From an uncultured Eubacterium sp. (GTDB lineage Bacteria; Bacillota; Clostridia; Oscillospirales; CAG-272), in the NCBI GenBank assembly GCA_900544285.1, contig UQUT01000001.1, forward strand, positions 59,004 to 123,003: a DNA stretch of 64,000 nucleotides, in the 5' to 3' direction. Positions 7,199-37,389 of this stretch are shown here, one piece after another. The first letter of the stretch is position 1. Every line of letters starts with the position of its first letter. The notes under the pieces were generated by a model. It worked only from the letters and a program-made list of their open reading frames with translations. It made no database searches and was not told the DNA's origin. Made by a program: the position numbers and the translations under genes.

Positions 7199-8002
7199 TT
7201 ATACGGTTTCCCGCAAGCCAAGACTGACAGCCAATTCGTCAAGATAATCAATATGACCGTGATCTGCGCCGTACAGCGTCACATAACCGTCTTTTTCGGC
7301 AGTTATATCTTGTCCCATAAAAATAACACGTTCGCCCTTTTTGAGATATTGCTTATGTCCGTTTTCTGTCAGATCATTGTATTCCTTTACCACAGACTGA
7401 TAATAGAGTTCAAAAAGCTCCTTGGCCTTTTCTATGTTTCCGAGATGACCGTATATCATACTTTCTTCTAATAAAATCAGTAATGAATTCAAGCTATCAA
7501 GCAAGGGATAATTTCTCCTTTTTGCAAGAATGGCGTCTCTGCTGTTTAACACTTCATAAACCGGTAAAACATATTGATCAATTTCATAAATAATGCTGTC
7601 AATAATTTTTACGGTCTTCTTGTGAAGGTCATACCAAGTTTCATTTTGACCGCTGACTCTTCCCAAACGTGAGCGGATTGTGCATTCATACTCGTGGTAA
7701 TATTTTTTCTTTTCTGTATTGGGCTGAAAAGTTCTTTCGGAACATTCCGGTATGCGAATGCCTAAATTTACACAGAGTAGCCCACCCATTCCGTGCGCCG
7801 GCATGCCGCTTTGAAAATTGATTACCTGCGAAATATCTTCCGAAACAAAACGATGAAGCGTTCTGCCGTATTTTTTGAATCCATATGGTTTGATATGCTC
7901 ATAAACCGACGATTCAATTTCATCGACTATGCGAGTTGTATTGATTTTTGCTTTTTTCTTCAAAAAATCAAACACAGATTCCTCCCTGATTTTAACGCAC
8001 AA
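7199..8002 (-). CDS. hypothetical protein
   Basis: A 267-aa ORF with good coding character; I recognise no motif. Confidence 0.45.
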   Translation of the reverse strand: MCVKIREESVFDFLKKKAKINTTRIVDEIESSVYEHIKPYGFKKYGRTLHRFVSEDISQVINFQSGMPAHGMGGLLCVNLGIRIPECSERTFQPNTEKKKYYHEYECTIRSRLGRVSGQNETWYDLHKKTVKIIDSIIYEIDQYVLPVYEVLNSRDAILAKRRNYPLLDSLNSLLILLEESMIYGHLGNIEKAKELFELYYQSVVKEYNDLTENGHKQYLKKGERVIFMGQDITAEKDGYVTLYGADHGHIDYLDELAVSLGLRETV

Positions 8003-8245
8003 TCATTGCAACCATCATTTTTTATTTTTTATATTATCTTTATTCCCACTCTTTTACAGGTGTCTCAAACACCTTGTTTTAAGGGCTTTTTACTGCCCTA
8101 ACAGCCTATTTTAGAGGGGATTTTCTATGTTATATTTGGTCTGTTTTCTTGCGTGTTGCAAGTGAAGTTGCATATAGGTTAAAGGGATAATTGCCTTTGG
8201 CTTTGAAGCCAGTCATTAGACTACATATTCTTTAATATTATACAC

Positions 8246-8280
8246 AAAAAGCCCGGTTTCGTCAACCGGGCTTTTGCTTT
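8246..8280 (-). terminator. intrinsic terminator ending the int-mobC-like transcript
   Basis: gcccggtt tcgtc aaccgggc forms the hairpin, with an A-run on the plus strand (a T-run on the minus strand). Confidence 0.5.
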
Positions 8281-8608
8281 ATACGCTTGTCTTGACATAC
8301 AGGTTATCAACGATTCCCATAATCAATTCTATGTTAGACATTAGCTCATCACCTATATTTTCGCCGCTTCCAATGCGCTGCAATTCTACTAACACCTCAT
8401 TGAGCTTATCGTAAACGGCTCGATGTATTTTGCAGTTGCCCTGAACATAAATCTTCCTATCGAGTAATTTAGATACAATGTAGTCCTGTTTGGTCATTCC
8501 CGATAGTTCAACAACAGTGTTGATTTGATGATCTTCCTCTGATGAAACCCGAAACCCGATTGTCCTATCCCGAAACCTGTTGTGCTTATCGCAATTTTTG
8601 GCTGACAT
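8279..8608 (-). CDS. MobC-like ribbon-helix-helix relaxosome accessory protein (tentative)
   Basis: 109 aa. RTIGFRVSSEEDHQINTVVELSGMTKQDYIV resembles the MobC N-terminal RHH, and LQRIGSGENIG loosely resembles the MobC LxRIGNNLNQ motif. It starts 4 nt after the int stop. Confidence 0.4.
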   Translation of the reverse strand: MSAKNCDKHNRFRDRTIGFRVSSEEDHQINTVVELSGMTKQDYIVSKLLDRKIYVQGNCKIHRAVYDKLNEVLVELQRIGSGENIGDELMSNIELIMGIVDNLYVKTSV

Positions 8609-8612
8609 ATTT

Positions 8613-9719
8613 TTACCCCCTTCTTAGGCTGTCAAGGTCGTTGGCGATTGTTCTTTGAACTTCATCGAATAGATGGCCATAAATGTCCTGCGTGGTTTTA
8701 ACAGATTTATGCCCTATTCGCTTCGATACCTCGAAAATATCGTACTTCTTACTGATTAACAAGGAAACGTGGGAATGGCGTAAACCGTGAACGGTTATCC
8801 TTTTCAGTCCTGCCTCCTGCGTCATATTTTGAAAATTCTTTGTCAGGGTAGACTTTGTAATCTGGAAGATACGCTGATCCGGTTCCGGTTCATATAGCAT
8901 ATCAATATATTCCCTGAGTTCATCGCAAAGGAAAGCAGGCATACTCACTTTTCTAACCGAACTCGGAGTTTTAGGAGTGCTGATTACATCTTGTCGGCCT
9001 ACTCTCTGATAGGTCTTATTAACGGTAATAATCCCTTCCTCCAAGTCAATGTCATTGAGAGTCAAGGCAAGCATTTCGCCTTCTCTGAGGCCACACCAGT
9101 AAAGAACTTCAAAAGCATAGTAGTAATGAGGATTCTGCATAGCGTAGTAGGCAAATTTTTCGTATTCGTCTGCACTCCAGAACTCGACTCTCTTATCCTT
9201 AATGCCCATATTTTTGATGTCAGCAAGGGGGTTTAATTTGAGATACCCCTTGCTGTGAGCATAGTTGATAACCGAATTGAACTGGCTCTGGATTGTTCTA
9301 AGGAACGCCTTAGAGAGAGGTTTCCCGTCCGGTTTGACAACGCTTTTCATTTTAGCCTGCCACGCTGCAATATCATCATCTGTTATATCCGCAATCGGCG
9401 TATCCCGAAAAGTCGGAAAGATGTGCTTTTCAAAGACGTTGTGTTTCGTTCTCAGGGAGGATTCTTTAATATCCTCCCGCTTATGCGACATAAGGTATTC
9501 CTGAAAAACGTCCTCAAATGTTCTCTCATAAGGTGCTTCTTCCTCCTCATTCTCTGCGGTGAGATTTTCAAGAAAATTCTCCTCATAGTCCTTTGCTTCT
9601 CGCTTGCTGTCAAAACCACGCTTGTATTCGGTTTGCGTGGTTCCAGTGTTCGGATCGACATAATTGAATTTTGCAAGCCACTTAACACCCTTTTTTACCT
9701 GATACTTATACTGCGGCAT
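8613..9719 (-). CDS. int: tyrosine site-specific integrase, Tn916 Int family
   Basis: The N-terminal arm-binding domain reads YKYQVKKGVKWLAKFNYVDPNTGTTQTEYKRGF. The C-terminal catalytic region reads HGLRHSHVSLL...GH...Y. Confidence 0.9.
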   Translation of the reverse strand: MPQYKYQVKKGVKWLAKFNYVDPNTGTTQTEYKRGFDSKREAKDYEENFLENLTAENEEEEAPYERTFEDVFQEYLMSHKREDIKESSLRTKHNVFEKHIFPTFRDTPIADITDDDIAAWQAKMKSVVKPDGKPLSKAFLRTIQSQFNSVINYAHSKGYLKLNPLADIKNMGIKDKRVEFWSADEYEKFAYYAMQNPHYYYAFEVLYWCGLREGEMLALTLNDIDLEEGIITVNKTYQRVGRQDVISTPKTPSSVRKVSMPAFLCDELREYIDMLYEPEPDQRIFQITKSTLTKNFQNMTQEAGLKRITVHGLRHSHVSLLISKKYDIFEVSKRIGHKSVKTTQDIYGHLFDEVQRTIANDLDSLRRG

Positions 9720-9733
9720 ATCGCTCGCCTCCT

Positions 9734-9943
9734 TTACTCATCGTCTGTTTGGATTTTTTCTTCAGGTGGGAAGAACCGTTTTGTTAGATACAAAGAATCA
9801 ACCTTGCCTTGAAGCGTTAAATAGCCTGATTTTTCAAGTTCTTTGTTCAAGCGGTCGATTATCTTGTAGGCATACGAGGCTGAAATACCAAGAATTTCAG
9901 CTACCTGTTCAGCGTTAATCAATTTTCTTGTATTGGATTCCAT
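9734..9943 (-). CDS. xis: excisionase (Xis-Tn916-like HTH)
   Basis: 69 aa from the internal ATG at 9943 (MESNTRKLINAEQVAEILGISASYAYKIIDRL). It lies immediately upstream of int, as in Tn916. Confidence 0.7.
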   Translation of the reverse strand: MESNTRKLINAEQVAEILGISASYAYKIIDRLNKELEKSGYLTLQGKVDSLYLTKRFFPPEEKIQTDDE

Positions 9944-10078
9944 ACTGTACCTCCATAAGCATTTCATTCTCAATCGCCTCCTTTTGTGTGGATTTGATTG
10001 TATTGTATTTGAACCTTCTGCAAACGGCAATTATGCGATTTGGGCAATCGCATAATTGCTATCTGCGCCACCTTCGAC

Positions 10079-10633
10079 TTATTTCGTGGGCGGCTTTTCA
10101 GATCTATCCCGAACAACATATTCAAAGCCCGAGTTATCGCATTTGTCGCATTTCTGCTTGATTTTCGCAAAGGGATCATACCGCTTCACAATATAGTCGG
10201 GATTTGATTTGTAGTCTTGCAGGCACCTGCCGCATAAGCACCGGATTTCGCCTTTGTGCTGCGGCTTGTAAACCCACACGCCGAGAGCTTTTTTCAGGCC
10301 ATTGTTAATCCTGCGGAAAACATTATCATCATCAACGATTCCGATATAGCTTACGAGATCTGCCTGATTGATTGTTTTGAGCTGCTCGAGCATAACCATT
10401 GAAGGCTCTCTCAGTCCGAAGCGGTCGCCCAAGATAATATGCGAGGGCAGATACCGCTTCTTTATTGCTGAGGTTAGAGCCGCAATCACGGTTGTCGTAC
10501 TTGCCTGATTTCCTTCATCGCACTGCACGACAAGGACGGGGCGGAGTCCGTTTTGCATAGAGCCTTCATTTTTACCAAAGTCATAAAGGTAAATTTCTCC
10601 ACGCTTTACTTTCTGATTTTCGTTGGTCGCCAT
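10079..10633 (-). CDS. MazF/NdoA (EndoA)-like endoribonuclease toxin domain fused to a C-terminal Cys4 zinc ribbon
   Basis: Residues 10-120 (KRGEIYLYDFGKNEGSMQNGLRPVLVVQCDEGNQASTTTVIAALTSAIKKRYLPSHI...MLEQLKTI) align closely with B. subtilis NdoA. The ~65-aa tail contains CLCGRC...CDKCD. No antitoxin ORF fits in the 67-nt upstream gap. Confidence 0.7.
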   Translation of the reverse strand: MATNENQKVKRGEIYLYDFGKNEGSMQNGLRPVLVVQCDEGNQASTTTVIAALTSAIKKRYLPSHIILGDRFGLREPSMVMLEQLKTINQADLVSYIGIVDDDNVFRRINNGLKKALGVWVYKPQHKGEIRCLCGRCLQDYKSNPDYIVKRYDPFAKIKQKCDKCDNSGFEYVVRDRSEKPPTK

Positions 10634-10700
10634 AATGTATACCTCTCATTTTTAGTATTTGAAAGGTGTTTCGCTGCCGGCTATGAAACAAGTCCCTTCA

Positions 10701-11291
10701 CTAATTCCCAGTGGCACCCCCGTTTTGGTCGGGTGTTTCATAAAACTTTTTGAAATTTTTTATCGCAGATACCAACGATTCGTGGATAGAGGTCTTAGAT
10801 TTACCTTCTTTTTCGGCTATATCCCGTTCAGGTATTTTGTAGATACAGGAAAGGATCAGCCGCCTTCTTTGAGGTTCAGTCAGCATACTCAACGCCTTAT
10901 ATAGCCTTTGATTTCTAAGTTGCAGGTTTTCGATTTCAAACTTTTGCGTAATATAATCGGGAGTAGTTAATTCAGCGTGAAAAGCCTCGCTAACTCCCTC
11001 ATCGTAACCATATGAATCCTCGCAGTTGTTCTGACGGTAGGCATATTTCTTTTCGTTTCTGATATAGTCCCTTCGGATTTCTCTGACTTCGGAATCAAGA
11101 ACGATAAAGGGAGTGTGTGCCGCAATCTGTTCCGGGTATCTTTCAAGAATTTCTCTCTCGGTCAGATGTGAAATAACCGCCCACTTAGGCTCGCCTATGA
11201 ACCCGGGATACTCATACCTCAAATTGATAACTTTGCAGTCATCGGCAAATTGTTCTTCAATGCTTCTTTCGTTTTCAATATTTGTAGACAT
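10701..11291 (-). CDS. sigma-70 region 4-like HTH protein (Tn916 Orf7-like regulator)
   Basis: C-terminal LTEPQRRRLILSCIYKIPERDIAEKEGKSKTSIHESLVSAIKNFKKF is a sigma r4 HTH. I chose the internal start MSTNIENER (ATG at 11291). It sits in the position of orf7 relative to xis and int. Confidence 0.5.
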   Translation of the reverse strand: MSTNIENERSIEEQFADDCKVINLRYEYPGFIGEPKWAVISHLTEREILERYPEQIAAHTPFIVLDSEVREIRRDYIRNEKKYAYRQNNCEDSYGYDEGVSEAFHAELTTPDYITQKFEIENLQLRNQRLYKALSMLTEPQRRRLILSCIYKIPERDIAEKEGKSKTSIHESLVSAIKNFKKFYETPDQNGGATGN

Positions 11292-11605
11292 TTCCGTAAT
11301 CTCCTTGAATTTGAATTTTGTTGGTGAGAACAAAATTCGGAGATCACGGATACCTACATATAAATGCCTGCCACGCTGATATAGACATAGAAACCCCTTC
11401 CGCTTAGCAAAGCGAAAAGGGCTTCTACACAAAAAACAGCCATAGCTTCCAAGATGAACACCTGAAAGCTATGACTGCTTCTTCTTATTCATATTCAATT
11501 CGTTCTGCCTAAGCTACTTGTGTTACTGCCATTAAGGTATAGTAGCTGAAACTGAAATTTCAAGAAAACATTTCATATTTCTCGGCATACCGATTATATC
11601 AGGTC

Positions 11606-11631
11606 GGTTTTACCGTGTCATCGGCAAAACC
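11606..11631. repeat. inverted-repeat hairpin (10-bp stem, 6-nt loop) in a long intergenic region
   Basis: ggttttaccg tgtcat cggcaaaacc, with one G:A mismatch. Confidence 0.5.
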
Positions 11632-11730
11632 CCGCCAATTTGTAGGCATTTTCTTTTCAGCTTCCACTCATACCCTCGATTCACGCCAAAGGCCGTGCTT
11701 CGGGCAGCATACACAGTGTAGCACAAGCAA

Positions 11731-11786
11731 AGTCGGACAATCAGTAGGGATTTAGTCGGACAATGGTCGGACATTAGTCGGACAAG
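11731..11786. repeat. array of 4 direct GTCGGACA repeats (iteron-like)
   Basis: Copies lie at 11732, 11755, 11766 and 11777, spaced 23, 11 and 11 nt. The last copy overlaps the stop of the 11774-12358 gene. Confidence 0.6.
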
Positions 11787-12358
11787 CTTTTGCTCACGAA
11801 GAAATCTGGAATTTCACCGCACATATCAACCTCCTCAATCTGAAATATTCCTTTGAAATAAGGAATCGCATACCCCCATAGGGAAACGCCGAGAAGCATA
11901 ACCGCCTCTTTTTTTCGGTCGTAAAAGGTACTGCGCTCCATATTCAACAATTCAAGCAGTTCGCTTTCGGTGTAGCGAAAAGCCGTGAGATAGCTCTTGG
12001 ATAGTATCTCGTGATAAAGTTTTCCGTTGTTGTGGTAATCGTAGATTTTCCCCATAGCCGTATCTATGAGGTCAATCATCCACTTATTTTCAAACAAGCT
12101 GCATACCCGGTTCTCGAACTCCTGACGCTCTATATCCGGGGCAAACTGCTCTAAATAGACGAGGGCGCTGTTCAGGTCATCCCCGTAATAGATGATTTCT
12201 TCATTTAACCCCTCAGACTTGTTCAGGGTTATCCATACAACATCCCGGTACACACCGAGAAGCATTTTCGTCCTATGCAGTATATCTTCCCGATCCAAGC
12301 GTAACTGCTCGTACATTTTTTGAATCGTCTTAACTGCGACTGTATCTTTTCTTCCCAT
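11774..12358 (-). CDS. hypothetical protein with a C-terminal HTH-like segment (possible ArpU/sigma-r4-like regulator)
   Basis: 194 aa. LNMERSTFYDRKKEAVMLLG looks like a helix-turn-helix. Confidence 0.4.
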   Translation of the reverse strand: MGRKDTVAVKTIQKMYEQLRLDREDILHRTKMLLGVYRDVVWITLNKSEGLNEEIIYYGDDLNSALVYLEQFAPDIERQEFENRVCSLFENKWMIDLIDTAMGKIYDYHNNGKLYHEILSKSYLTAFRYTESELLELLNMERSTFYDRKKEAVMLLGVSLWGYAIPYFKGIFQIEEVDMCGEIPDFFVSKSLSD

Positions 12359-12439
12359 TAGCTCTCCTTATCCGTAAAAAACCGGGCATACTAAAAAGAT
12401 GTTTGGTTTATCGTATCGTGTGTGAAAAAAGTTTCCTGA

Positions 12440-12590
12440 CATTTTTTTGAACTCTCTTGACAAAACACGCAACTTGCGGTATTATATTTACGCAACTTAC
12501 TTGCGTATTGACATTATACGAAATTAACTTGCGCTTGTCAATAGGGACACGCAATATAATTTCAGAAATGTGCGAACTATTTGGAGGGCG
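12440..12590 (+). promoter_or_regulatory. stacked sigma-A-type promoters with palindromic operator sites upstream of the XRE (ImmR-like) gene
   Basis: TTGACA 12458-12463 is followed 16 nt later by TATTAT 12480-12485, with further TTGACA and TTGTCA boxes. Palindrome CGCAAnnTTGCG occurs at 12468-12478, a spaced variant at 12491-12505, and half-sites at 12527-12554. Confidence 0.5.
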
Positions 12591-12595
12591 TAAAA

Positions 12596-13003
12596 ATGAA
12601 ATTCTGCGAAAAAATAAGGGAAGCCCGCAAAAATGCAGGCTTGAAGCAAGACGAGTTTGCAAAAGCAATCGGTGTTTCTCTTAGAACAGTATCCAACTAC
12701 GAATCCGGCGAAAGGTATCCCAAAAAACGGGAAACCTATTATAAGATAGCCGAAGTCCTGAAGGTCGATGTCAACTATCTGCTCACCGATGACGAGGAAT
12801 TTCTGCTCGAGGCAGAAGCGAAGTACGGCACCAAAGGCGCAAGGCAGGCAAAAGCGCTCGTGGCAGAAGTAAGCGGTCTGTTTGCAGGCGGCGAACTTGC
12901 GGACGAAGATCTGGACGAAATGATGAAGGGCATTCAGGAAGCTTACTGGATCGCCAAAGAGAAAAACAAGAAGTACACCCCCAAAAAATACCGCAAAGAG
13001 TAA
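12596..13003 (+). CDS. XRE-family HTH repressor (ImmR-like)
   Basis: MKFCEKIREARKNAGLKQDEFAKAIGVSLRTVSNYESG is a Cro/CI HTH. GGAGGG precedes the ATG at 12596. Confidence 0.8.
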   Translation: MKFCEKIREARKNAGLKQDEFAKAIGVSLRTVSNYESGERYPKKRETYYKIAEVLKVDVNYLLTDDEEFLLEAEAKYGTKGARQAKALVAEVSGLFAGGELADEDLDEMMKGIQEAYWIAKEKNKKYTPKKYRKE

Positions 13004-13086
13004 CGGTTCTATTGAGAGTCCGTTTTTTGGGACATTAGTTATGGGATAATAGAGTTGCGGGCAGTTTAGATTGGAGGTGTTCGCTC

Positions 13087-13602
13087 TTGGATATTCAAAC
13101 ATTAGAAATTGTAAAAAAGGCCAATCGGCTTGTAAATGAGCTTGGTACACGCAATCCGCACAGAATGGCACGGGAACTTGGAATAGCGGTTATCCCGTTG
13201 GATTTTAAGCGGCAGCGTGGTGCATATAAAGTTTTAATGCGAAATCGTTTTATCTTCATCAAAAGCGATCTGCACCCGGTAATGGAAAATATCGTAATGT
13301 TTCACGAGATCGGACACGACACATTACATAGAGAGGAAGCAATCCGGGCAGGCGGCTTTAAGGAGTTCAATATCTTCGATATGCGGGAAAGCCGTATGGA
13401 ATATGAAGCGAACATCTTTGCCTCACAAATCTCCCTGCCGGACGATGAAATCCTTGAATATATTGAGCAGGGATATGATACTCAGCAAATCGCACGGGCT
13501 ATGTGTTCGGATATTAACTTGGTTGCCTTGAAAACAGACACGCTTATCGCACAGGGCTATTGTCTGCGCCATCAGGAATATCGCAATCGGTTTTTGAAAT
13601 AG
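13087..13602 (+). CDS. ImmA/IrrE-family zinc metallopeptidase (anti-repressor protease)
   Basis: The HEIGH motif FHEIGHDTLH is present. TTG start sits 7 nt after GGAGGTG. It lies directly downstream of the XRE repressor, as in ICEBs1 immR-immA. Confidence 0.8.
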   Translation: MDIQTLEIVKKANRLVNELGTRNPHRMARELGIAVIPLDFKRQRGAYKVLMRNRFIFIKSDLHPVMENIVMFHEIGHDTLHREEAIRAGGFKEFNIFDMRESRMEYEANIFASQISLPDDEILEYIEQGYDTQQIARAMCSDINLVALKTDTLIAQGYCLRHQEYRNRFLK

Positions 13603-13611
13603 ATTAACGGA

Positions 13612-15033
13612 ATGGAGAAACCCATTATGAGATATACACTTGAAGAACTATGTACCAAAAAGGAAAATCAGGTCTTTGACCGCAAAAGTGCAAGAAAAGA
13701 CGCCAAAGGATTATCCAATCATATTGTAGCCTTCGCCAATGCGGACGGAGGTACACTTGTTATTGGCGTAGAGGACAACGGCGAAATAACAGGAATTGAC
13801 GCATACACCAACAATATCAATGATATTCTGCGGGTTCCCTTTGACTACTGCAATCCTTCGGTAAGGGTAACTACCGAAACAGTTGAGTGCAAAGACAAGG
13901 ACGGAAATCTGAACCATCTTCTGATTATGACGATTCCCCAAAGTTCTGAGCTTCACGCCAATCAGCAGGACGAGGTTTATTACCGTATGGGTGATAAGTC
14001 AAAGAAACTAAACTTTGATGAGCGCTTGCAGCTTATGTATGCCAAAGGTTCCCGTTACTATGAAGATGAGCCTGTGTTCCGGTCTACGTTAGATGACATT
14101 GATATGGATTTCGTCGCCGAATACTGTAAGAAAATCGGCTACACGAAATCCCCGGAAGAATACATCAGGCAGAACAAAGACTATATTGTAAAGCACGACG
14201 GTCGAGAGGAAATGAGTGGGGCTGCGCTTCTTCTTTTCGGGGCAGATCCACAGCGTTTCTTCCCGAGAGCAAGGGTGCGCTTTATCCGCTATGACGGAAC
14301 AGAAGCCAAGGTCGGCACACAGATGAACGTCATCAAAGATGAGGTTTTCTCCGGTCGTATTCTGGATATGGTTCAGCAGGCGCTTGATTTCGTCCGCAGT
14401 CAAATCAAGGAACGCACTCGGCTCGGCGGCGATGGGCGGTTTGTTACTACGCCCGAATACCCTGAATTTGCTTGGAAAGAAAGCATTGTGAATGCTGTTG
14501 CCCATCGTGATTACAGTATCAAAGGAACCGACATTCAGATTAAAATGTTTGATGACCGGATCACCGTTGAAAGCCCCGGTATTTTACCCGGTATCGTCCG
14601 GCTGAGTAATCTGCGAACCGTACATTTCTCCCGCAATCCAAAAATCGCTGAATTTTTACACCAATATGACTACGTGAAAGAGTTTGGCGAAGGCGTTGAC
14701 CGAATGTTCAAAGAAATGGAAAATGCGGGGCTTCCCGCACCTGAATACAGCGATAATGTCTTTATGCTTAATGTGACGATACGAAATGGGGCAATAAATG
14801 AGAAAAGCGGGGTAATAAATGGGGCAATAAATGGAGCGATAAATCTATCGTCTACCGAAAGGGCAGTTCTCGAAGCAATAATCGACACTCCGAACATTAC
14901 AAAGGAAAAATTGCAAATAGTAACTTCGCTCGGAAAAGGTACAATCGACCGAGCCATCAAAACATTGAAAGAAAAAGAAATTATCAAGCGGGTTGGTTCT
15001 AACAAGAATGGATATTGGGAAATGCTGAAATGA
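13612..15033 (+). CDS. Schlafen-like AlbA_2 (divergent AAA) + HATPase_c_4 + winged-HTH protein (COG2865-like ATP-binding regulator)
   Basis: The N-terminal FANADGGTLVIGVEDNG matches AlbA_2, the middle region NAVAHRDYS...TVESPG matches HATPase_c, and the C-terminal LSSTERAVLEAI...KEKLQIVTSLGKGTIDRAIKTLKEKEIIKR is a winged HTH. The in-frame repeat GAINEKSGVINGAINGAIN lies at 14786-14842. Confidence 0.7.
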   Translation: MEKPIMRYTLEELCTKKENQVFDRKSARKDAKGLSNHIVAFANADGGTLVIGVEDNGEITGIDAYTNNINDILRVPFDYCNPSVRVTTETVECKDKDGNLNHLLIMTIPQSSELHANQQDEVYYRMGDKSKKLNFDERLQLMYAKGSRYYEDEPVFRSTLDDIDMDFVAEYCKKIGYTKSPEEYIRQNKDYIVKHDGREEMSGAALLLFGADPQRFFPRARVRFIRYDGTEAKVGTQMNVIKDEVFSGRILDMVQQALDFVRSQIKERTRLGGDGRFVTTPEYPEFAWKESIVNAVAHRDYSIKGTDIQIKMFDDRITVESPGILPGIVRLSNLRTVHFSRNPKIAEFLHQYDYVKEFGEGVDRMFKEMENAGLPAPEYSDNVFMLNVTIRNGAINEKSGVINGAINGAINLSSTERAVLEAIIDTPNITKEKLQIVTSLGKGTIDRAIKTLKEKEIIKRVGSNKNGYWEMLK

Positions 15034-15103
15034 AGGTATAGAACATAGACTCGCATAGATCGAACCCCATCCGATTGAACACAGGTGAGCAGGTGTGAAT
15101 TTG

Positions 15104-15140
15104 AAAAGCGGAGGCACATTTGAAAGTGCCTCCGCTTTTC
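15104..15140 (+). terminator. intrinsic terminator after the Schlafen-like gene
   Basis: gcggaggcac atttgaaa gtgcctccgc followed by tttt. Confidence 0.6.
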
Positions 15141-15244
15141 ATTTATCACCCTATAAAACGAAGTATAAATCTCTCGTCCGTTGCGAGAACAGTAGCTGTA
15201 ACACTAAAATCTAAAACCGAAGCGAACCCACAGGGCAGCGGTGC

Positions 15245-16442: not shown

Positions 16443-17579
16443 CTATTTCAGACAACCCTTTAGCACGGACACAGCCTGATCCACTTCTTCCTTTGTGTTA
16501 TAGCCGTGGATGCCAGTACGGATATATCCACACCTCATTGAACAGGCGATATTGTTCTGCCTGAGTGTTGCATAAGTCTCCTCTATTTTGGACGGACGGA
16601 AAGATACAATGGTAGACCTTGTACTATCCCGTTCCGTACAGGGGACAAGCTCCACCGGAAGTTTGCGAAGCTCCTCAATTAAGTATCCACTGACATTCCA
16701 AGCAGCTTTATGGATTTCATCAAATCCGATCTGCTTCATCAGCAAAAGCGAAGCACGCAGTCCGGCAATTCCCGGCGCATTCGGCAATGAGCCTTCAAAC
16801 CTTGAAGCATCTTCCTTCAGGTCAAACGGATAATTTGTAGAATCCACAAAAGTCTTCATGCTGTCTGCGCCTACAAACGGGGGGATCAGTTCGGGAATCA
16901 GGTCCTTCCTGACGTACAAAAATCCGGTTGCAAAAGGCCCCAGCAGCCATTTAGAAGAAAGCCCGGCCATAACATCGATTTGATACTTTTTCACATCCAT
17001 CGGCATCACGCCAAGCGATTGGGCGCAGTCAACCACCAAATACGCCTGATGTGCCCGACACCAGGCGCCGACGGCTTCCAGATCCGTCTTGAACCCATCG
17101 CCAAATTCCACACTGCTCACCGAAACCGCCCGGGTGCGCTCGTCTGCATATCGTTCCAATAGCTCCGTAGTCAATCCGCCGCCCTGGTGAGGAACAATCC
17201 GTACCTCTATCCCTTTCACCCGTTCCAATTGCATCCAGGGATAGACATTAGAGGAAAACTCCCGGTTACAGAGAATAATATTATCTCCTGCTTGAAGCGG
17301 CAAGGAACCGGCGGCAGAGTTGATGCCGTAGGTCACGCTCTCCGTAAATGCAATCTCTTCCGGAGATGCGCCCATCAACTCCGCCAGCAAGGATTTGCAG
17401 GAAGAAAAAACCTCTTCCGCAAAGCGGTAATATTTCATCGGCATGGTCTGCCGCAGTTTCATACAGGCATTCATCGCCTCCGTCACACAAGGCGCTACCG
17501 GCCCCATAGACGCATTGTCAAAAAACACGCCCCTACTGGTCGTCTGCTGAAAAGCCTCTCGAAACAATTCGATTCCCAT
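16443..17579 (-). CDS. aminotransferase class V / cysteine desulfurase-family PLP enzyme
   Basis: The fold motifs match over SVTYGIN...VVDCAQS...SSKWLLGP. I chose the internal start MGIELF (ATG at 17579), which overlaps the upstream stop in TGATG. Confidence 0.7.
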   Translation of the reverse strand: MGIELFREAFQQTTSRGVFFDNASMGPVAPCVTEAMNACMKLRQTMPMKYYRFAEEVFSSCKSLLAELMGASPEEIAFTESVTYGINSAAGSLPLQAGDNIILCNREFSSNVYPWMQLERVKGIEVRIVPHQGGGLTTELLERYADERTRAVSVSSVEFGDGFKTDLEAVGAWCRAHQAYLVVDCAQSLGVMPMDVKKYQIDVMAGLSSKWLLGPFATGFLYVRKDLIPELIPPFVGADSMKTFVDSTNYPFDLKEDASRFEGSLPNAPGIAGLRASLLLMKQIGFDEIHKAAWNVSGYLIEELRKLPVELVPCTERDSTRSTIVSFRPSKIEETYATLRQNNIACSMRCGYIRTGIHGYNTKEEVDQAVSVLKGCLK

Positions 17580-18109
17580 CACAGTCTCCCGCCTTGTTTG
17601 CTTACAGGACCTTCCGCCTTTCTCACCAAGTCCACCACACGGTATGCCACCAAACGGATACACAGCACCTGAATGGGAATGGTAATCAGGTTTTGCACAA
17701 TACGTGTCGGCAGCAAAACAAGATACCCTTTCCCCGTTAAAAGCATCAGCCAGAATGTCTGCAAGATTACACTGATAAAAACGCTCTCACAGACCACGCA
17801 AAGGATGACACGCCTGATGTCCGCCGGCTTGCGGTATAAAAACACACCGTAAATCACACCGGACAGGATTGCCGAAATCGTCATCGGCGGGAAATACCCA
17901 AATCCGCCCAGCACTGCCACCAGAATATCTCCAATGGCTCCTGCTACACCGCCCCACACCGGGCCGTAAAGCATAGCAACAATCACAAGGGGCAAGAAGG
18001 CAAAACCAATTTTTACAATCGGCAGCGAAATAGAAAGAAAGCGTCCGGCTACCACCTGAGCCGCAACCAACATACCGATAACCACAATTTTTTTAACTTT
18101 AGAATTCAT
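17579..18109 (-). CDS. ECF transporter S component, folate (FolT) family-like
   Basis: 176 aa, about 5 TM. RFLSISLPIVKIGFAFLPLVIVAMLYGPVWGGVAGAIGDIL...GYFPPMTISAILSGVIYGVFLYRK matches the FolT-family pattern. Confidence 0.65.
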   Translation of the reverse strand: MNSKVKKIVVIGMLVAAQVVAGRFLSISLPIVKIGFAFLPLVIVAMLYGPVWGGVAGAIGDILVAVLGGFGYFPPMTISAILSGVIYGVFLYRKPADIRRVILCVVCESVFISVILQTFWLMLLTGKGYLVLLPTRIVQNLITIPIQVLCIRLVAYRVVDLVRKAEGPVSKQGGRL

Positions 18110-18149: not shown

Positions 18150-18375
18150 TTGAAAACAGAAAAAACCTCCTTTTTATGTAGAATCCGCTACATAAATGGA
18201 GGCAGTTCGACTATTCTTCTTCCAGAATATGTAGCAACGGGATGCGGACTCTGCACCGCCAGTGAATGCTTCACTGTTCGTCCCACCGCCAACTCCCCGT
18301 CCGGTGGGCACTTCGTGCCGATTGGCACACGCACAAAACCCTACTTTGCTGTTCGAATACCTGAATTCATAGGTA
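18150..18375 (-). ncRNA. structured 5' leader ending in an intrinsic terminator (18155-18203). It is a candidate riboswitch, possibly THF-like given the folT context.
   Basis: A -10-like box tatact lies at ~18380-18395. The leader holds nested hairpins GUGCCAAUCGGCAC and CAGUGAAGCAUUCACUG, the direct repeat UGGCGGUG x2, and fragments AGUAGG, CACGAAG and GCAUCC. The terminator is cctccatttatgtag-cggattc-tacataaaaaggagg plus UUUUUU, ending 40 nt before the ATG. Confidence 0.35.
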
Positions 18376-18720
18376 TCCGATTAGTATAGTATAGCATATT
18401 TTTTCAGAAAAGAAAAGGTTATTCTTTCCATCAAATATAGATATTCATAATATGGGTATTCATAAATTCCAATTTTATTTTCTCAAGCATAGAGGCAATA
18501 AATTAAGCTCTGATATATAGTGGAAAATGCTTCGCTTTCCTGCACTTCCTTCTGAACGGCGACTATCCTCTTTTCCATTATAGCGTTTTCACGCTTCTCT
18601 GCAGCGGTAACTATCTCTTTCGATTTGTAATTGGTGGTAGAACCGAGGCCACCAGCTTTATCACCCCGATAATCTTGTGCTGTTTCTATACGGAAATGTT
18701 TGCCAGAATATTGAGAAGAA

Positions 18721-29354: not shown

Positions 29355-29615
29355 TTGCTATCCCTCCTTTTACACTCTCAGTTTTGTTCTGTTGGCGCAA
29401 CAGGCGGTATAAGTATTTAACCATTATAAACATCCTTTCTCTTTGTATTATTATGTTCTTCAAAATCTGAAGGCACACCACAATTCGCATAGAATCTGGC
29501 ACCGCCTTGAATTTGATCTCCACAGTTTGAACCGAATGCTACTATAGCTCACCATCTCTCCTTTATATTTCTGAATTCGCCAAGATTGTTTCATCGTTCT
29601 TGACTTATTTTTTGC

Positions 29616-30656
29616 TTATGGGTGGCAGTTACCGCAGGGATCATAGCCTCGAGCAATTACATCGTCTCGGCTTCCTGTAAAATATTCCTTATTGCTCTCT
29701 TTCATTCGGCCTACCGATGAGCAGGAAGGATAGTGGAATTTCTTTGTGTTTTTATTAAGAATATACGTGGTTTCCTGCTTGTTTTCTTCCGGTTGCTGAT
29801 TTACAGTCGGTTGTTCTTCATTTGGCACTTCTTTCGATCCGCCTATATAAGAACTTTCGCCTGTCGCATAGTCTATTGAGATCTGCGGCTGCGCATTGTA
29901 AACAAAGACATTGAAACAAATACCGTCGCCATCATCTTCAACAGAATACGCTTCCATTTGAACCCCGTTGGCGACAAGGTTTTTCCCGTCGTAGATAGGA
30001 GTAACCCGATAGAGGACGTGGTAATTTGTTTCCTTTACGAAGTCGGCAACCATATTCTCGAATGGCAGCATACCATCAACATTCATATACCGAGTACCTG
30101 TTATCAGATTCTTCGTATTCGCATTCTCTCCACTTAGCTGAAAACCGATTAAATGGCAGCGGTTATATAGGTACTTTCCGTCAACGCAATCATATTTAAC
30201 CGTGTGCCATCCGGTAGGCTTGACCTGCCCGATACTCCCACGATCTTCGGTTGGCATTAAATCTTGACCAATGCAGGCCATCGCAATTCCACATCTGCCG
30301 AGGTTGTCAAGGTCGCTATAATATTCATACGATTGCGTCGTATAATCATCATCGCTGAAATACGGCACATTATCGTTGACTGCCACATAGGGCGATCCTG
30401 CGAAAGCAGGAATACTCGACAACGAGACTGCTTTATTTTCGGTTGGTATAGAGGGCTTTTCAGTAGGCGTTGAATCTGTGCTGACTTCCGGTTCTGAGTC
30501 CGGTATTGATTGTTCGCTCTCGGTTGGTTTCGTCAGCTCAATACTCGACGATGAATCCGATATATCAGAACTTATTTCATCAGGGATTTCACCGCACCCG
30601 GAAAAGATAATGCTCACCGCCAGAAGAAGCGATAAAAGCCACGTCATTTTCTTCAT
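29616..30656 (-). CDS. lipoprotein DNA/RNA non-specific endonuclease (EndA/NucA-like) with a C-terminal Ada-type Cys4 module
   Basis: The lipobox reads MKKMTWLLSLLLAVSIIFSGC. NRCHLIGFQLSGENANTKNLITGT is a DRGH-type beta-beta-alpha-Me nuclease motif. The C-terminus KFHYPSCSSVGRMKESNKEYFTGSRDDVIARGYDPCGNCHP matches the tail of the 27783 product. Confidence 0.7.
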   Translation of the reverse strand: MKKMTWLLSLLLAVSIIFSGCGEIPDEISSDISDSSSSIELTKPTESEQSIPDSEPEVSTDSTPTEKPSIPTENKAVSLSSIPAFAGSPYVAVNDNVPYFSDDDYTTQSYEYYSDLDNLGRCGIAMACIGQDLMPTEDRGSIGQVKPTGWHTVKYDCVDGKYLYNRCHLIGFQLSGENANTKNLITGTRYMNVDGMLPFENMVADFVKETNYHVLYRVTPIYDGKNLVANGVQMEAYSVEDDGDGICFNVFVYNAQPQISIDYATGESSYIGGSKEVPNEEQPTVNQQPEENKQETTYILNKNTKKFHYPSCSSVGRMKESNKEYFTGSRDDVIARGYDPCGNCHP

Positions 30657-34225: not shown

Positions 34226-35356
34226 ATGTCAAAAAAAGGTGAAAACATTTATAAGCGAAAGGACGGAAGATGGGAAGGTCGGTATATCAAGCTCTATGAC
34301 GCTGACGGAAAAGCAAAATACGGTTATCTCTATGGGAAAACCTACGGTGAAACCAAAACCAAGCTGCAAGAAAAACAAGCGCAGATCTGCCGGGGGCAGC
34401 TTCCCCAAGTATCAAAAATCGCTTTGTATTCGGATATACTTACGGCTTGGCTTCAATCCACCCGTATCAATGTAAAGGAATCTACCTACGTTCGGTATAA
34501 GCAGCTTATCGACCGCCACATTATCCCGCCTTTGGGGAAATACGTTGTCGGCAAAATCAGTACGCAGTTGATTGAAAAGTTTGTAGAGGAAAAGATAAAA
34601 AGCGGTCGTTTGGACGGGAAAGGCGGCCTGTCGCCTAAGACGGTAACGGATATTATCACGATTGTAAAAAGTTCAATGGAATATGCTTCTTATAATGGGT
34701 TCCCGGTGGCCTGCAATCTGAGTAAGCTGTCTGTAAAAAAGAAAGAAAAAGAGATGAGGGTTTTGTCGGCACAAGAACAGAAGCAGCTAACCTCAACCCT
34801 CCTTGAAGAAACGGATCTTTGTAAATTGGGGGTGCTTCTCAGCCTATATACCGGGATACGGATTGGGGAACTCTGCGCTTTACGATGGGAGAATCTGAAC
34901 CCCAACGACAAAACCCTTCGGGTGCGGGAAACAATGCAGCGTATTCAAAGCTCTGAGCCGAGCGAACGGTCTAAGACTAAAATCGTGATAACCGAGCCGA
35001 AAAGCAAATGCTCGATTCGGGATATTCCACTGCCCGATTTTCTGCTTCAAATCATACGCCAGTTTCAAGGAACGCCGAAGGCTTTTATCTTAACCGGGGA
35101 AAGAAACAGGTATATCGAACCCCGTACAATGCAAAACCGCTTTCAGCGCTATGTCCGGGAAAGTGGAATAAAAGAAGCAAATTATCACGCCCTCCGTCAC
35201 ACCTTCGCCACAAGGTGCGTGGAGGTCGGATTTGAAATAAAGAGTCTGAGCGAAATTCTCGGTCACGCCAATGTCAATATTACACTCAATCGCTATGTTC
35301 ACTCTTCCTTTGATCTCAAAACGCAGAATATGAATAAGCTCGCTATCGTTGCTTAA
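34226..35356 (+). CDS. int: tyrosine site-specific integrase (Tn916/phage Int family)
   Basis: The N-terminal arm-binding domain reads NIYKRKDGRWEGRYIKLYDADGKAKYGY. The C-terminal catalytic box reads HALRHTFATRCVEVGFEIKSLSEILGHANVNITLNRYVH. Confidence 0.9.
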   Translation: MSKKGENIYKRKDGRWEGRYIKLYDADGKAKYGYLYGKTYGETKTKLQEKQAQICRGQLPQVSKIALYSDILTAWLQSTRINVKESTYVRYKQLIDRHIIPPLGKYVVGKISTQLIEKFVEEKIKSGRLDGKGGLSPKTVTDIITIVKSSMEYASYNGFPVACNLSKLSVKKKEKEMRVLSAQEQKQLTSTLLEETDLCKLGVLLSLYTGIRIGELCALRWENLNPNDKTLRVRETMQRIQSSEPSERSKTKIVITEPKSKCSIRDIPLPDFLLQIIRQFQGTPKAFILTGERNRYIEPRTMQNRFQRYVRESGIKEANYHALRHTFATRCVEVGFEIKSLSEILGHANVNITLNRYVHSSFDLKTQNMNKLAIVA

Positions 35357-37273: not shown

Positions 37274-37389
37274 AAAAACCTCCTTTCCGAGCGCCCTGTT
37301 ACGCTCTAAAATGAAAAAGAGGGGTAAAGGTACAAACACCTTACCCCTCAAAGTGCGGGCGCTGAAAAGCCGCTTGTTTCAAGGGCTTT

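What the first reader, a model, noticed from the sequence alone, without database searches (positions are those of the whole stretch)
8100..15150. Small T4SS-less integrative element combining a Tn916-type orf7-orf8-xis-int module with an ICEBs1-type ImmR/ImmA switch
The gene order Orf7-like sigma-r4 protein, (orf8 position), xis, int on one strand reproduces the Tn916 recombination module. The divergently placed XRE repressor plus HEIGH protease pair reproduces the ICEBs1/phage ImmR-ImmA derepression module. The repressor has palindromic operators and stacked promoters. No relaxase or T4SS is present, so this looks like a mobilizable or decaying element whose main cargo is a Schlafen-like ATPase. 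A MobC-like RHH gene is translationally adjacent to int, outside the usual Tn916 end.
Basis: partly seen in the sequence, partly recalled or inferred. Interest (0 to 1): 0.55.

Follow-up and report, generated by a model that had tools for sequence, protein, structure and literature searches.

The report
ICE-derived mini integrative island, no transfer genes
A 7.1-kb integrated genetic element in a human-gut Clostridia genome keeps the on/off switch and cut-and-paste genes of a conjugative element but has no DNA-transfer machinery; it sits at the same site in every sampled genome, and other mobile elements insert next to one of its ends.

Summary
Window ~8040-15147 is a discrete 7.1-kb integrative element with the stated gene order and no relaxase or T4SS.

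The labels need correcting:
- Xis is ICEBs1-like and Int is an arm-binding phage-type integrase. Neither matches the Tn916 Pfam families.
- The 'orf8 position' holds a MazF/PemK-like protein with a C-terminal Cys-rich tail and no antitoxin.
- A second regulator, p194, was missed.
- The NikA-like RHH gene lies inside the element and belongs to a conserved Xis-Int-NikA module.

The backbone (XRE-ImmA | p194-sigma-MazF-Xis-Int-NikA-attR) recurs in many gut Clostridia with swapped cargo (Schlafen-like ATPase, YhcG nuclease) or a serine recombinase instead of Xis-Int-NikA. Parts of it also form the terminal module of true ICEs (Monoglobus; L070).

The right end is sharply conserved: arm repeats plus a core resembling the guaA 3' end. 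In other genomes of this species, MobV IMEs and defence islands sit directly against it.

The element lies beside a flavodoxin gene in 24/24 contigs, not at guaA. It lacks the canonical attL arm sites of its family, and no circular junction was found. It is therefore probably a fixed, possibly excision-defective derivative. This is a new member of a known kind, of moderate interest.

The parts
8040..8057 (-). Right-end (attR) core GTAAAAGAGTGGGAATAA. It reads ..KEWE-stop and resembles the 3' end of guaA.
   Evidence: Homology with more than 20 contigs breaks exactly here. The core is conserved across the family, and the stop codon varies TAA/TAG/TGA. In L032, guaA ends ..ATCGAGTGGGAGTGA at a canonical attL.
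8153..8173 (-). Pair of arm-type direct repeats, (T)TGCAAC x2, in the P arm.
   Evidence: Exactly one such pair lies ~115-130 bp before the core in nearly every family locus.
8237..8275 (-). nikA terminator hairpin overlapping an outward-facing sigma70 promoter (TTGACG-17-TATAAT).
   Evidence: (I9). Conserved in most relatives.
8279..8608 (-). NikA-like ribbon-helix-helix protein, a putative relaxosome accessory factor.
   Evidence: PF21983 9.9e-9, above cutoff. phrog_30322 1.9e-31. 49-50% identical to the NikA-like gene that follows int in MobV IMEs.
8613..9719 (-). Tyrosine integrase, 368 aa, with an arm-binding N-terminal domain.
   Evidence: Arm-DNA-bind_4 + SAM_3 + Phage_integrase. The exact protein is indexed in 750 collection blocks.
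9734..9967 (-). Excisionase (Xis), 77 aa, ICEBs1-Xis-like.
   Evidence: NF047858 1.3e-11, below the equivalog cutoff. phrog_989 1.4e-17. Strong RBS.
10020..10066 (.). Inverted repeat between pemK and xis (21-nt arms, 86% complementary). Role unknown.
   Evidence: (I3).
10079..10633 (-). MazF/PemK-like endoribonuclease domain fused to a C-terminal CxxC...CxxC tail. No adjacent antitoxin.
   Evidence: PF02452 1.8e-22. EndoA/MazF structures 1.5e-20 over residues 9-116. Conserved at 51-76% identity in the family.
10701..11291 (-). Sigma-70 region-4-like protein, 196 aa (Orf7 analogue).
   Evidence: Sigma70_r4_2 2.8e-4 here; 8e-9 and 2e-8 in orthologues. 35% identical to the sigma gene of the Monoglobus ICE.
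11344..11388 (-). Conserved 14-codon leader ORF, MSISAWQAFICRYP-stop.
   Evidence: Conserved with synonymous and conservative changes in 4 diverged relatives. Coordinates.
11434..11480 (-). Intrinsic terminator (20-bp stem plus T run) upstream of the sigma gene.
   Evidence: Conserved.
11593..11621 (-). Internal promoter (ATGACA-17-TATAAT with extended -10).
   Evidence: Conserved.
11732..11783 (-). Four GTCCGAC direct repeats at the end of p194, a candidate activator-binding array.
   Evidence: These are the only four GTCCGAC sites in the 64-kb window. Conserved in relatives.
11774..12358 (-). p194: all-helical protein with no Pfam family. Putative transcription activator and first gene of the excision operon.
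   Evidence: No Pfam or NCBIfam hit. Weak hits to phrog_1558 (3e-8) and phrog_248 'transcriptional activator' (1.3e-4). 253 homologues, none with a functional name (the only source names are 'hypothetical protein').
12457..12541 (.). Switch region: face-to-face promoters for the repressor operon (+) and the excision operon (-), with CGCAA/TTGCG palindromic operators at 12468-12478 and 12491-12505.
12596..13003 (+). XRE-family HTH repressor, 135 aa (ImmR analogue).
   Evidence: HTH_3 8.3e-15. capH 1.5e-10.
13087..13602 (+). ImmA/IrrE-type M78 metalloprotease with the HEIGH motif.
   Evidence: PF06114 9.9e-16. capP 1.1e-9. 71% identical to the ImmA of the Monoglobus ICE.
13627..15033 (+). Cargo gene: Schlafen/AlbA_2 + HATPase_c_4 + wHTH protein, co-transcribed with the repressor operon.
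   Evidence: PADLOC pAgo-model domain 3.9e-49. This slot holds YhcG or other genes in relatives.
15102..15141 (.). Terminator hairpin of the cargo operon.
   Evidence: I7.
15143..15147 (-). Inferred left junction (GATAA). The layout 'xATAA + hairpin' recurs at the cargo-side end of relatives, but no arm-type sites are present.
   Evidence: Inference. The true left end is only bracketed to 15034-15244.

Best explanation
Window ~8040-15147 is a 7.1-kb site-specific integrative element that carries no relaxase, coupling protein or T4SS. It belongs to an undescribed but widespread modular family in gut Clostridia. Parts of the family's regulation and recombination backbone also occur as the terminal module of true ICEs.

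How it most likely works:
1. In the integrated state, the XRE repressor is made from the rightward promoter together with the ImmA-type protease and the Schlafen-like cargo gene. The repressor binds the CGCAA/TTGCG palindromes, which overlap both start sites of two face-to-face promoters, and keeps the leftward operon off.
2. A signal activates ImmA to inactivate the repressor. By analogy with ICEBs1 ImmR/ImmA and CapH/CapP, the signal is probably DNA damage.
3. p194 is then made. It probably activates the internal promoter through the GTCCGAC repeats.
4. Transcription has to pass a terminator and a leader-peptide region to reach the sigma-like protein, the MazF-like protein, Xis, Int and NikA.
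5. Int and Xis act on the conserved right end (arm repeats plus a core resembling the guaA 3' end).
6. Transfer would require a helper element's relaxase and T4SS, possibly recruited by the NikA-like accessory protein.

In this species the copy sits at an ectopic site beside a flavodoxin gene, not at guaA. It is present in every sampled genome and lacks the canonical attL arm sites. It is therefore probably a fixed, weakly excising or non-excising derivative. In other genomes of this species, guaA-type MobV IMEs and defence islands lie directly against its right end, as if it served as a surrogate attachment site.

Shown here: gene content, boundaries at the right end, conservation, modularity, fixation in the species, and elements abutting the right end.
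Inferred: repressor cleavage, the regulatory cascade, excision competence, and mobilisation.

Boundaries and fixation:
- Homology with more than 20 contigs breaks sharply at 8040, while the flavodoxin-side flank is identical.
- The exact Int protein is indexed in 750 blocks and the exact flavodoxin in 783.

Family backbone:
- Sig-PemK-Xis-Int-NikA plus the ~230-bp right end recur in 16 genome loci and 66 metagenome loci at 58-89% Int identity.
- The full backbone recurs with other cargo: YhcG in L043 and L053, SLFN in L061.
- In L037-L042 a large serine recombinase replaces Xis-Int-NikA.

Link to true ICEs:
- In the Monoglobus pectinilyticus ICE (VirB4, CHAP, tet genes), ImmA is 71% identical, XRE 54%, Sig 35% and PemK 44%.
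- L070 has a CHAP gene and the regulatory module, and ends in Xis-Int(74%)-NikA.

Right end and accretion:
- The core equals the guaA 3' end, and the canonical attL has three TTGCAAC arm sites (L032, L033, L035, L021).
- MobV IMEs abut the core in L002, L004, L007 and L008.
- A 3.2-kb segment in L082 is flanked by two cores.

Regulatory features:
- The switch and cascade features are conserved in relatives.

Literature:
- guaA 3' ends as IME targets, accretion at attR, and relaxase-less IMEs that carry a relaxosome accessory factor are all described (PMC5357655, PMC5704250).
Against: - No second copy of the core and no TTGCAAC arm pair exists anywhere left of the element. A functional attL is therefore not demonstrated.
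- The left end is only bracketed to 15034-15244.
- No empty site was found. The closest flavodoxin homologues (83-86% identity) are not syntenic beyond the HxlR-flavodoxin pair.
- No attP junction was found in two contig collections.
- No oriT was identified.
- The NikA-like protein is not similar to the accessory gene of the co-resident ICE, and the two elements share no DNA that could be a common oriT.
- p194's function rests on weak PHROG hits, and its AlphaFold model was unusable (pLDDT 51).
- guaA adjacency was seen in only one related locus, L032.
- Sequence diversity within the species is about 0.1%, so intact ORFs say little about current function.
Confidence: 0.55

Rival explanations
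1. The copy is a still-active mobilizable island: a relaxase-less IME/MGI with one accessory factor. It excises through Int/Xis using an asymmetric att system with arm sites on one arm only. A co-resident ICE, for example the one at ~29-64 kb in this window, mobilises it in trans through an unrecognised oriT bound by the NikA-like protein.
For: - All nine ORFs are intact in almost all copies.
- The same small architecture, including p194, abuts unrelated flanks in at least 4 contexts: the window, L043, L053 and L061. This implies movement as a unit at least in the past.
- A 100%-identical PemK-Xis-Int-NikA module occurs in a different element context in L021.
- An ICE with VirB4, VirD4 and a MobP relaxase lies in the same window.
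- Relaxase-less IMEs carrying an accessory factor are a known class (PMC5704250).
Against: - The element is at the same site in 24/24 contigs.
- No attP junction was found.
- The left end has no arm sites, whereas canonical attL sites of this family have three.
- The element shares no oriT-like DNA with the co-resident ICE, and the two accessory proteins are not similar.
Confidence: 0.3
2. The functional unit is a damage-regulated defence locus: a CapH/CapP-like HTH and M78 protease pair controlling a Schlafen-like effector. It merely lies next to a decaying integrase module, and the mobile-element genes are no longer relevant.
For: - XRE and ImmA hit the PADLOC capH and capP models (1.5e-10, 1.1e-9), and the SLFN protein hits a pAgo-associated domain model (3.9e-49).
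- The cargo is co-transcribed with the regulator pair.
- The locus is fixed in the species.
Against: - The XRE-ImmA pair stays with the p194-Sig-PemK-recombinase backbone when the cargo changes (YhcG, others) and when the recombinase type changes.
- The same pair also sits in ICE regulatory ends.
- The pair therefore belongs to the element's switch, not to the cargo.
Confidence: 0.12
3. It is a prophage or phage-satellite remnant.
For: - Several genes hit PHROG families.
- 'Bacteriophage sp.' fecal scaffolds give partial 67-70% matches.
- An integrase, an XRE/ImmA pair and a RinA/ArpU-like activator are phage-like features.
Against: - The element and its relatives have no structural, packaging, replication or lysis genes.
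- The matching 'phage' records are unverified, unannotated linear scaffolds that carry only single modules.
- The closest complete relatives are ICEs with T4SS genes.
- The last gene is a relaxosome-type RHH.
Confidence: 0.04

Closest known systems
ICEBs1 (Bacillus subtilis) ImmR/ImmA switch with Xis/Int
   Same: - An XRE repressor lies next to an M78 HExxH protease.
- The repressor operon diverges from an operon that contains xis.
- Xis matches the ICEBs1 Xis model (1.3e-11).
- Int is a phage-type arm-binding tyrosine integrase.
- The element targets the 3' end of a conserved gene.
   Different: - int sits at the far end of the excision operon, not beside immR-immA.
- There are no rapI-phrI genes, no conjugation genes and no relaxase.
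- Extra cascade components are present: p194, a sigma-like protein and a MazF-like protein.
- The promoters face each other.
Tn916 orf9 / orf7-orf8-xis-int regulatory and recombination end
   Same: - The architecture matches: an XRE gene diverges from a sigma-region-4 regulator followed by xis and int at the element's end.
- Transcription is directed towards the end. In ICE relatives it could cross the joint after circularisation (inference).
   Different: - Int lacks PF02920 and Xis lacks PF09035. A positive control exists in L008.
- The orf8 slot holds a MazF-like protein.
- An extra NikA-like gene follows int.
- The end carries a specific guaA-like core rather than AT-rich low-specificity targets.
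- tblastn at E<=1e-3 found no match to the sigma-like protein in the plasmid collection other than the Monoglobus ICE.
Relaxase-less IMEs ('MGIs') with one relaxosome accessory factor, e.g. MGIVchHai6 and MGIVmi1 (PMC5704250)
   Same: - Own tyrosine integrase.
- No relaxase or T4SS.
- One putative accessory factor.
- Defence-type cargo.
- Dependence on a helper element is presumed.
   Different: - Those elements are from Vibrio and have demonstrated helpers and oriT mimicry.
- Here no oriT, helper or transfer is shown.
- The regulation is of the ImmR/ImmA type.
Streptococcal IMEs targeting the guaA 3' end, and tandem accretion / CIME formation (PMC5357655; PMC5704250)
   Same: - The core resembles the guaA 3' end.
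- Other IMEs lie in tandem against the right end.
- Decayed mini-elements flanked by cores are present (L082, L033, L036).
   Different: - This copy is not at guaA. It appears to have carried the core to an ectopic site.
- It lacks a relaxase.
- The host clade differs (gut Clostridia).
Monoglobus pectinilyticus ICE (NZ_OY725736.1, 448-468 kb) and the ICE end in L070
   Same: - Homologous ImmA, XRE, sigma and PemK genes in the same order.
- The same face-to-face promoter layout.
- L070 also shares Xis-Int-NikA.
   Different: - Those are full ICEs with VirB4, CHAP and sortase genes and tet cargo.
- In place of p194 they carry PolIV and a second M78 gene.
- The Monoglobus Int is a different, 487-aa type.

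Membership tests
Tn916-type recombination module | Integrase with the Tn916 N-terminal DNA-binding domain (Pfam PF02920, Integrase_DNA) | tested here: not met
   One search gives Arm-DNA-bind_4 + SAM_3 + Phage_integrase only. A real Tn916-type Int in L008 carries PF02920.
Tn916-type recombination module | Tn916-type excisionase (PF09035) | tested here: not met
   There is no PF09035 hit. The best hit is the ICEBs1 Xis model NF047858, 1.3e-11.
Tn916-type recombination module | Sigma-region-4 protein (Orf7) followed by a small HTH protein (Orf8) upstream of xis-int | tested here: inconclusive
   A sigma r4-like protein is present, weak here and above cutoff in orthologues. The next gene is MazF-like, not a small HTH protein. 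Direct comparison with the Tn916 Orf7 sequence was not possible.
ICEBs1-type ImmR/ImmA switch | XRE-family repressor encoded next to an M78 (HExxH) anti-repressor protease | tested here: met
   HTH_3 8.3e-15; Peptidase_M78 9.9e-16 with the HEIGH motif. The two genes are co-directional and 83 bp apart.
ICEBs1-type ImmR/ImmA switch | Protease cleaves the repressor on induction | not testable with these tools
   Needs biochemistry or genetics.
ICEBs1-type ImmR/ImmA switch | immR-immA-int co-oriented at one end, divergent from xis and the transfer genes | tested here: not met
   int is the penultimate gene of the divergent operon. The repressor operon carries cargo instead.
Integrative mobilizable element without relaxase (MGI type) | Own integrase and excisionase and defined att sites | tested here: inconclusive
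   Int, Xis and a conserved attR are present. attL has no second core or arm sites.
Integrative mobilizable element without relaxase (MGI type) | No relaxase, coupling protein or T4SS; may carry a relaxosome accessory factor | tested here: met
   Pfam, NCBIfam and PHROG scans of all ORFs. NikA-like PF21983 is above cutoff.
Integrative mobilizable element without relaxase (MGI type) | An oriT recognised by a helper, and demonstrated mobilisation | not testable with these tools
   No oriT was found, and no DNA is shared with the co-resident ICE.
guaA-3'-end-targeting tyrosine-integrase elements | att core identical or similar to the last codons of guaA | tested here: met
   The core is GAGTGGGAATAA. 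In L032, guaA ends GAGTGGGAGTGA at a canonical attL that carries the same arm repeats.
guaA-3'-end-targeting tyrosine-integrase elements | Integrated immediately downstream of guaA | tested here: not met
   There is no guaA in the 64-kb window or in the flanks of 24 conspecific contigs. The neighbouring gene encodes a flavodoxin.
Type II MazEF toxin-antitoxin | MazF/PemK toxin with an adjacent MazE/PemI antitoxin gene | tested here: not met
   The toxin domain is present. No antitoxin-sized ORF or domain lies on either side: the upstream gap is 67 bp and the downstream gap is 111 bp and contains a palindrome.
CapH/CapP-regulated defence operon | HTH and M78 pair controlling an adjacent defence effector | tested here: inconclusive
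   PADLOC capH 1.5e-10 and capP 1.1e-9. However, the pair co-varies with the mobile backbone, not with the cargo.

The most novel reading that the evidence does not exclude
An ICE-derived mini-element has carried a copy of the guaA-3'-like attachment core to an ectopic chromosomal site and become fixed there. Its right end now acts as a surrogate attB that recruits many different guaA-specific IMEs and defence islands, which would found a new, species-wide hotspot of variable DNA. In addition, its excision cascade uses components not described for ICE/IME control: an antitoxin-less MazF fused to a Cys-rich tail, a conserved 14-aa leader peptide behind a terminator, and the unnamed p194 activator.
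Probability: 0.3. Interest if true: 0.55.

Novelty: new member of a known kind. Interest (0 to 1): 0.36.

Why it matters
- It documents an abundant, unnamed family of small integrative elements in human-gut Clostridia. The exact Int protein alone is indexed in 750 assembly blocks.
- The family shows how regulation modules, recombination modules and defence cargo are swapped between ICEs, MobV IMEs and relaxase-less islands.
- If the surrogate-attB reading is right, a fixed, possibly immobile element can still organise a hotspot of variable DNA by offering a conserved attachment core.
- It points to testable regulatory parts: face-to-face promoters, p194, the MazF fusion and the leader peptide.
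- No new principle is demonstrated.

Tried and rejected
- **L010 as independent insertion.** I first read L010 as an independent insertion that defined both ends. This was wrong. L016 shows it is the same site with a 7.4-kb serine-recombinase island inserted at 15154-15157.
- **Flanking direct repeats.** None were found.
- **Small ORF at the right end.** A conserved ORF ending at the right end was rejected. Only the last 4-5 codons are conserved.
- **guaA near the element.** It is absent from the window and from all loci except L032.
- **Empty site.** Looked for through flavodoxin homologues. They are not syntenic.
- **Window's right flank.** The DUF4304 gene there is rare and occurs only on 2.3-kb contigs.
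- **attP junction.** The search found nothing in metagenome contigs or viral contigs.
- **p194.** The AlphaFold model had pLDDT 51, so no fold search was run. PDB searches with the sequence and with a profile found nothing.
- **Sigma-like and NikA-like proteins.** They have no PDB relatives by sequence.
- **'Bacteriophage sp.' records.** They are linear, unannotated fragments with no terminal repeats.
- **Rfam.** It finds no RNA family inside the element.
- **Shared oriT or accessory factor with the co-resident ICE.** Neither was found.
- **Literature.** The search found no description of this family.

Full report
**1. Observation**

ORF listing and domain scans confirm the gene set and order.

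Minus strand:
- NikA-like RHH, 8279-8608. PF21983 scores above its cutoff; MobC_2 is only sub-threshold.
- Tyrosine integrase, 8613-9719. Domains are Arm-DNA-bind_4, SAM_3 and Phage_integrase.
- Xis, 9734-9967.
- PemK/MazF domain with a CxxC...CxxC tail, 10079-10633.
- Sigma region-4-like protein, 10701-11291.
- A 194-aa protein with no Pfam family, 11774-12358.

Plus strand:
- XRE repressor, 12596-13003.
- M78 ImmA/IrrE protease with HEIGH, 13087-13602.
- SLFN_AlbA_2 + HATPase_c_4 + wHTH protein, 13627-15033.

nikA starts 4 nt after the int stop codon. No ORF hits a relaxase, coupling-protein or T4SS family.

The switch region contains two near-consensus sigma70 promoters that face each other: plus strand 12457-12485 and minus strand 12541-12513. 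Two CGCAA-N-TTGCG palindromes lie over the predicted start sites. They account for two of only three such sites in 64 kb, against 0.7 expected.

**2. Boundaries and population**

The exact Int protein is indexed in 750 collection blocks. The ten long contigs shown (L001-L010) are 99.9-100% identical to the window from 8040 rightwards. All diverge from the window, and mostly from one another, immediately left of 8040.

L010 at first looked like an independent insertion. It is the same site with a 7.4-kb serine-recombinase island inserted at 15154-15157, so it does not define the left end.

The neighbouring flavodoxin protein is indexed in 783 blocks. All 22 contigs read for it, plus two contigs of a 99% variant, carry the element. 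The element therefore appears fixed in this uncultured gut Clostridiales species.

The closest flavodoxin homologues (83-86% identity) share only the HxlR-flavodoxin pair, so no empty site was recovered. The left end is bracketed between the SLFN stop codon (15033) and the flavodoxin stop codon (15245).

**3. The family**

A scan of species-representative genomes found relatives with 75-89% Int identity over the full-length protein in MAGs labelled Clostridia, Ruminococcus, Lachnospiraceae and Christensenellales. It also found C-terminal Int fragments with NikA and the right end in Oscillospiraceae and Gemmiger MAGs and in Merdimmobilis hominis. A metagenome scan added 66 loci.

Sig-PemK-Xis-Int-NikA and a ~230-bp right end are conserved throughout. 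The right end consists of:
- the nikA terminator, overlapping an outward TTGACG-17-TATAAT promoter;
- a pair of TTGCAAC arm-type repeats, one pair per locus;
- the terminal core GTAAAAGAGTGGGA(A/G)T(A/G)(A/G).

Only the last codons (..KEWE-stop) are conserved as coding sequence, and the stop codon varies synonymously. In L032, guaA ends ..ATIEWE-stop (GAGTGGGAGTGA) exactly at a left end that carries three TTGCAAC sites. The same canonical left end occurs in L033, L035, L036 and L021. The Int family is therefore a guaA-3'-end type, which is a target already known for IMEs (PMC5357655, PMC5704250).

**4. Modularity**

Homologues of p194 are numerous and carry no functional name. Their contexts show the same backbone, ImmA<-XRE | p194-Sig-PemK-Xis-Int-NikA, at 74-76% nucleotide identity but with different cargo:
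- YhcG/DUF1016 in L043-45, L053, L058 and L105;
- SLFN in L061.

In L037-L042 a 564-aa serine recombinase replaces Xis-Int-NikA.

MobV-type IMEs carry homologous Xis (37-43%), Int (39-40%) and NikA (49-50%), followed by AAA_25 and Mob_Pre genes.

Two true ICEs share parts of the backbone:
- An annotated ICE in Monoglobus pectinilyticus (VirB4 CD1110-type, sortase, CHAP, tet(O/32/O), tet(40)) ends with ImmA (71%), XRE (54%), PolIV, a second M78 gene, sigma (35%), PemK (44%), HTH proteins and a different Int.
- L070 combines a CHAP gene and that regulatory module with Xis-Int(74%)-NikA.

The window element is therefore a T4SS-less derivative or chimera of ICE regulation and recombination modules. 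NikA is an integral part of the recombination-end module, not a gene outside the element.

**5. The right end as a landing pad**

Directly beyond the core lie different things in different contigs:
- MobV IMEs with their own arm repeats (L002, L004, L007, L008, L017, L022);
- defence islands with Kiwa, RM and AbiEii genes (L009);
- remnants (L001, L003, L043);
- apparently chromosomal DNA (L006, and the window itself).

L082 shows a 3.2-kb segment carrying HNH and HigBA-like genes, bounded by two cores. This is tandem accretion and CIME formation as described for streptococci.

**6. Regulation (inferred)**

The switch layout is conserved even in the Monoglobus ICE. Between p194 and the sigma gene, four diverged relatives conserve the following:
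- four GTCCGAC repeats, the only four in the window;
- an extended -10 promoter;
- a long-stem terminator;
- a 14-codon ORF, MS(I/L)xxWQxxxxRYP-stop.

I infer a cascade: the repressor is inactivated by the M78 protease, p194 is made, the internal promoter fires, and terminator read-through lets the sigma-like protein, the MazF fusion, Xis, Int and NikA be expressed.

The MazF domain is close to B. subtilis EndoA (1.5e-20), but no antitoxin gene is adjacent.

XRE and ImmA also match the PADLOC capH and capP models, and the cargo matches a Schlafen-like domain of a pAgo model. The pair follows the backbone rather than the cargo, so it is the element's own switch.

**7. Is this copy mobile?**

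Against:
- It is at one site in 24/24 contigs.
- It is not at guaA.
- There is no second core and no TTGCAAC pair within 17 kb to the left, although canonical attL sites of this family have three arm sites.
- No circular junction was found in two contig collections.

For:
- The same small architecture abuts unrelated DNA in at least four contexts, each with an 'xATAA + hairpin' junction.
- A 100%-identical PemK-Xis-Int-NikA block occurs behind a canonical left end in L021.
- The ORFs are intact.

A complete ICE with VirB4, VirD4, CHAP and a MobP relaxase lies at ~29-64 kb in the same window. Its accessory gene and DNA show no similarity to the element.

I put excision competence at about 30%.

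**8. Comparison and novelty**

Functionally the element resembles ICEBs1 in its ImmR/ImmA switch and Xis type. It resembles the Tn916 end in architecture only, because the defining Tn916 domains were tested and are absent. As a class it is closest to relaxase-less IMEs that carry one accessory factor, and to decayed elements in accretion arrays at guaA.

No paper describing this Clostridial family was found. It is a new member of a known kind. Interest is moderate.

The more novel possibility has two parts. One is an ectopic surrogate attB that founds a defence-island hotspot. The other is the set of unusual cascade components. It remains to be tested.

Noticed in passing
window ~29400-64000: A complete-looking ICE lies in the same window. 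It has int (34226-35356, +), CHAP (35537-37351), a VirB4-like gene (39272-41611), VirD4 (44377-46185), a MobA/VirD2-type relaxase (48908-50290), YodL/DUF3846 (50889-51953) and a giant ORF (over 2834 aa) running off the window end. It is a candidate helper, but shares no oriT-like DNA and no similar accessory protein with the element.
   Followed up: partly
window 18233-18350 (-): A THF riboswitch (Rfam RF01831, 68 bits) lies upstream of the ECF transporter S-component gene at 17579-18109. That gene is therefore probably a folate-family transporter rather than a riboflavin transporter.
   Followed up: no
window 18425-18436: A second insertion hotspot. L013 has a ~5.3-kb insert here, and in L017 the end of the ICE (matching window 29376-30000) abuts this point.
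   Followed up: partly
L016 10641-18082 (insertion point = window 15154-15157): In one metagenome contig, a 7.4-kb island ending in a 503-aa large serine recombinase is inserted 7-10 bp outside the element's inferred left end.
   Followed up: partly
window 11344-11388 (-): A conserved 14-codon leader ORF (MSISAWQAFICRYP-stop) lies behind a strong terminator and ahead of the sigma-like gene. It ends in Pro-stop. This could be a translational or attenuation control.
   Followed up: partly
window 10079-10633 (-) and 10020-10066: A MazF/EndoA-like domain is fused to a C-terminal CxxC...CxxC tail, has no antitoxin gene, and is conserved in the family. A 47-bp inverted repeat with no T run follows it, before xis.
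   Followed up: partly
L021 1-540 joined to window 10734: A 3.3-kb contig carries a canonical left end (three TTGCAAC sites) and a 67-aa gene, fused to a block 100% identical to the window's PemK-Xis-Int-NikA-attR. This indicates a very recent module exchange.
   Followed up: partly
L082 3399-6587: A 3.2-kb segment with an HNH nuclease and a HigB/HigA-like pair is flanked by two copies of the att core (AAAGAGTGGGAATAA and AAAGAGTTTGAATAA). It is a CIME-like accretion product.
   Followed up: partly
L043 14270-14800: Tandem ~224-bp repeats of att-region remnants sit beyond the core, followed ~0.6 kb further on by what reads by eye like a tRNA gene on the minus strand (not checked with ARAGORN).
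   Followed up: no
L037-L042: The serine-recombinase version of the backbone shows the same pattern as the window element: a constant cargo-side flank and a variable recombinase-side flank within one species.
   Followed up: partly
window 14784-14845 (+): Copies of a 17-nt direct repeat spaced 12-21 nt apart lie inside the SLFN gene and encode repeated GAIN motifs just before the wHTH domain.
   Followed up: no
window 7199-8002 (-) and L117/L118: The DUF4304 gene that abuts the right end in this window is rare. It was found on only three ~2.3-kb contigs, and the two shown start at the att core. The window's right-flank arrangement is therefore an uncommon variant.
   Followed up: partly
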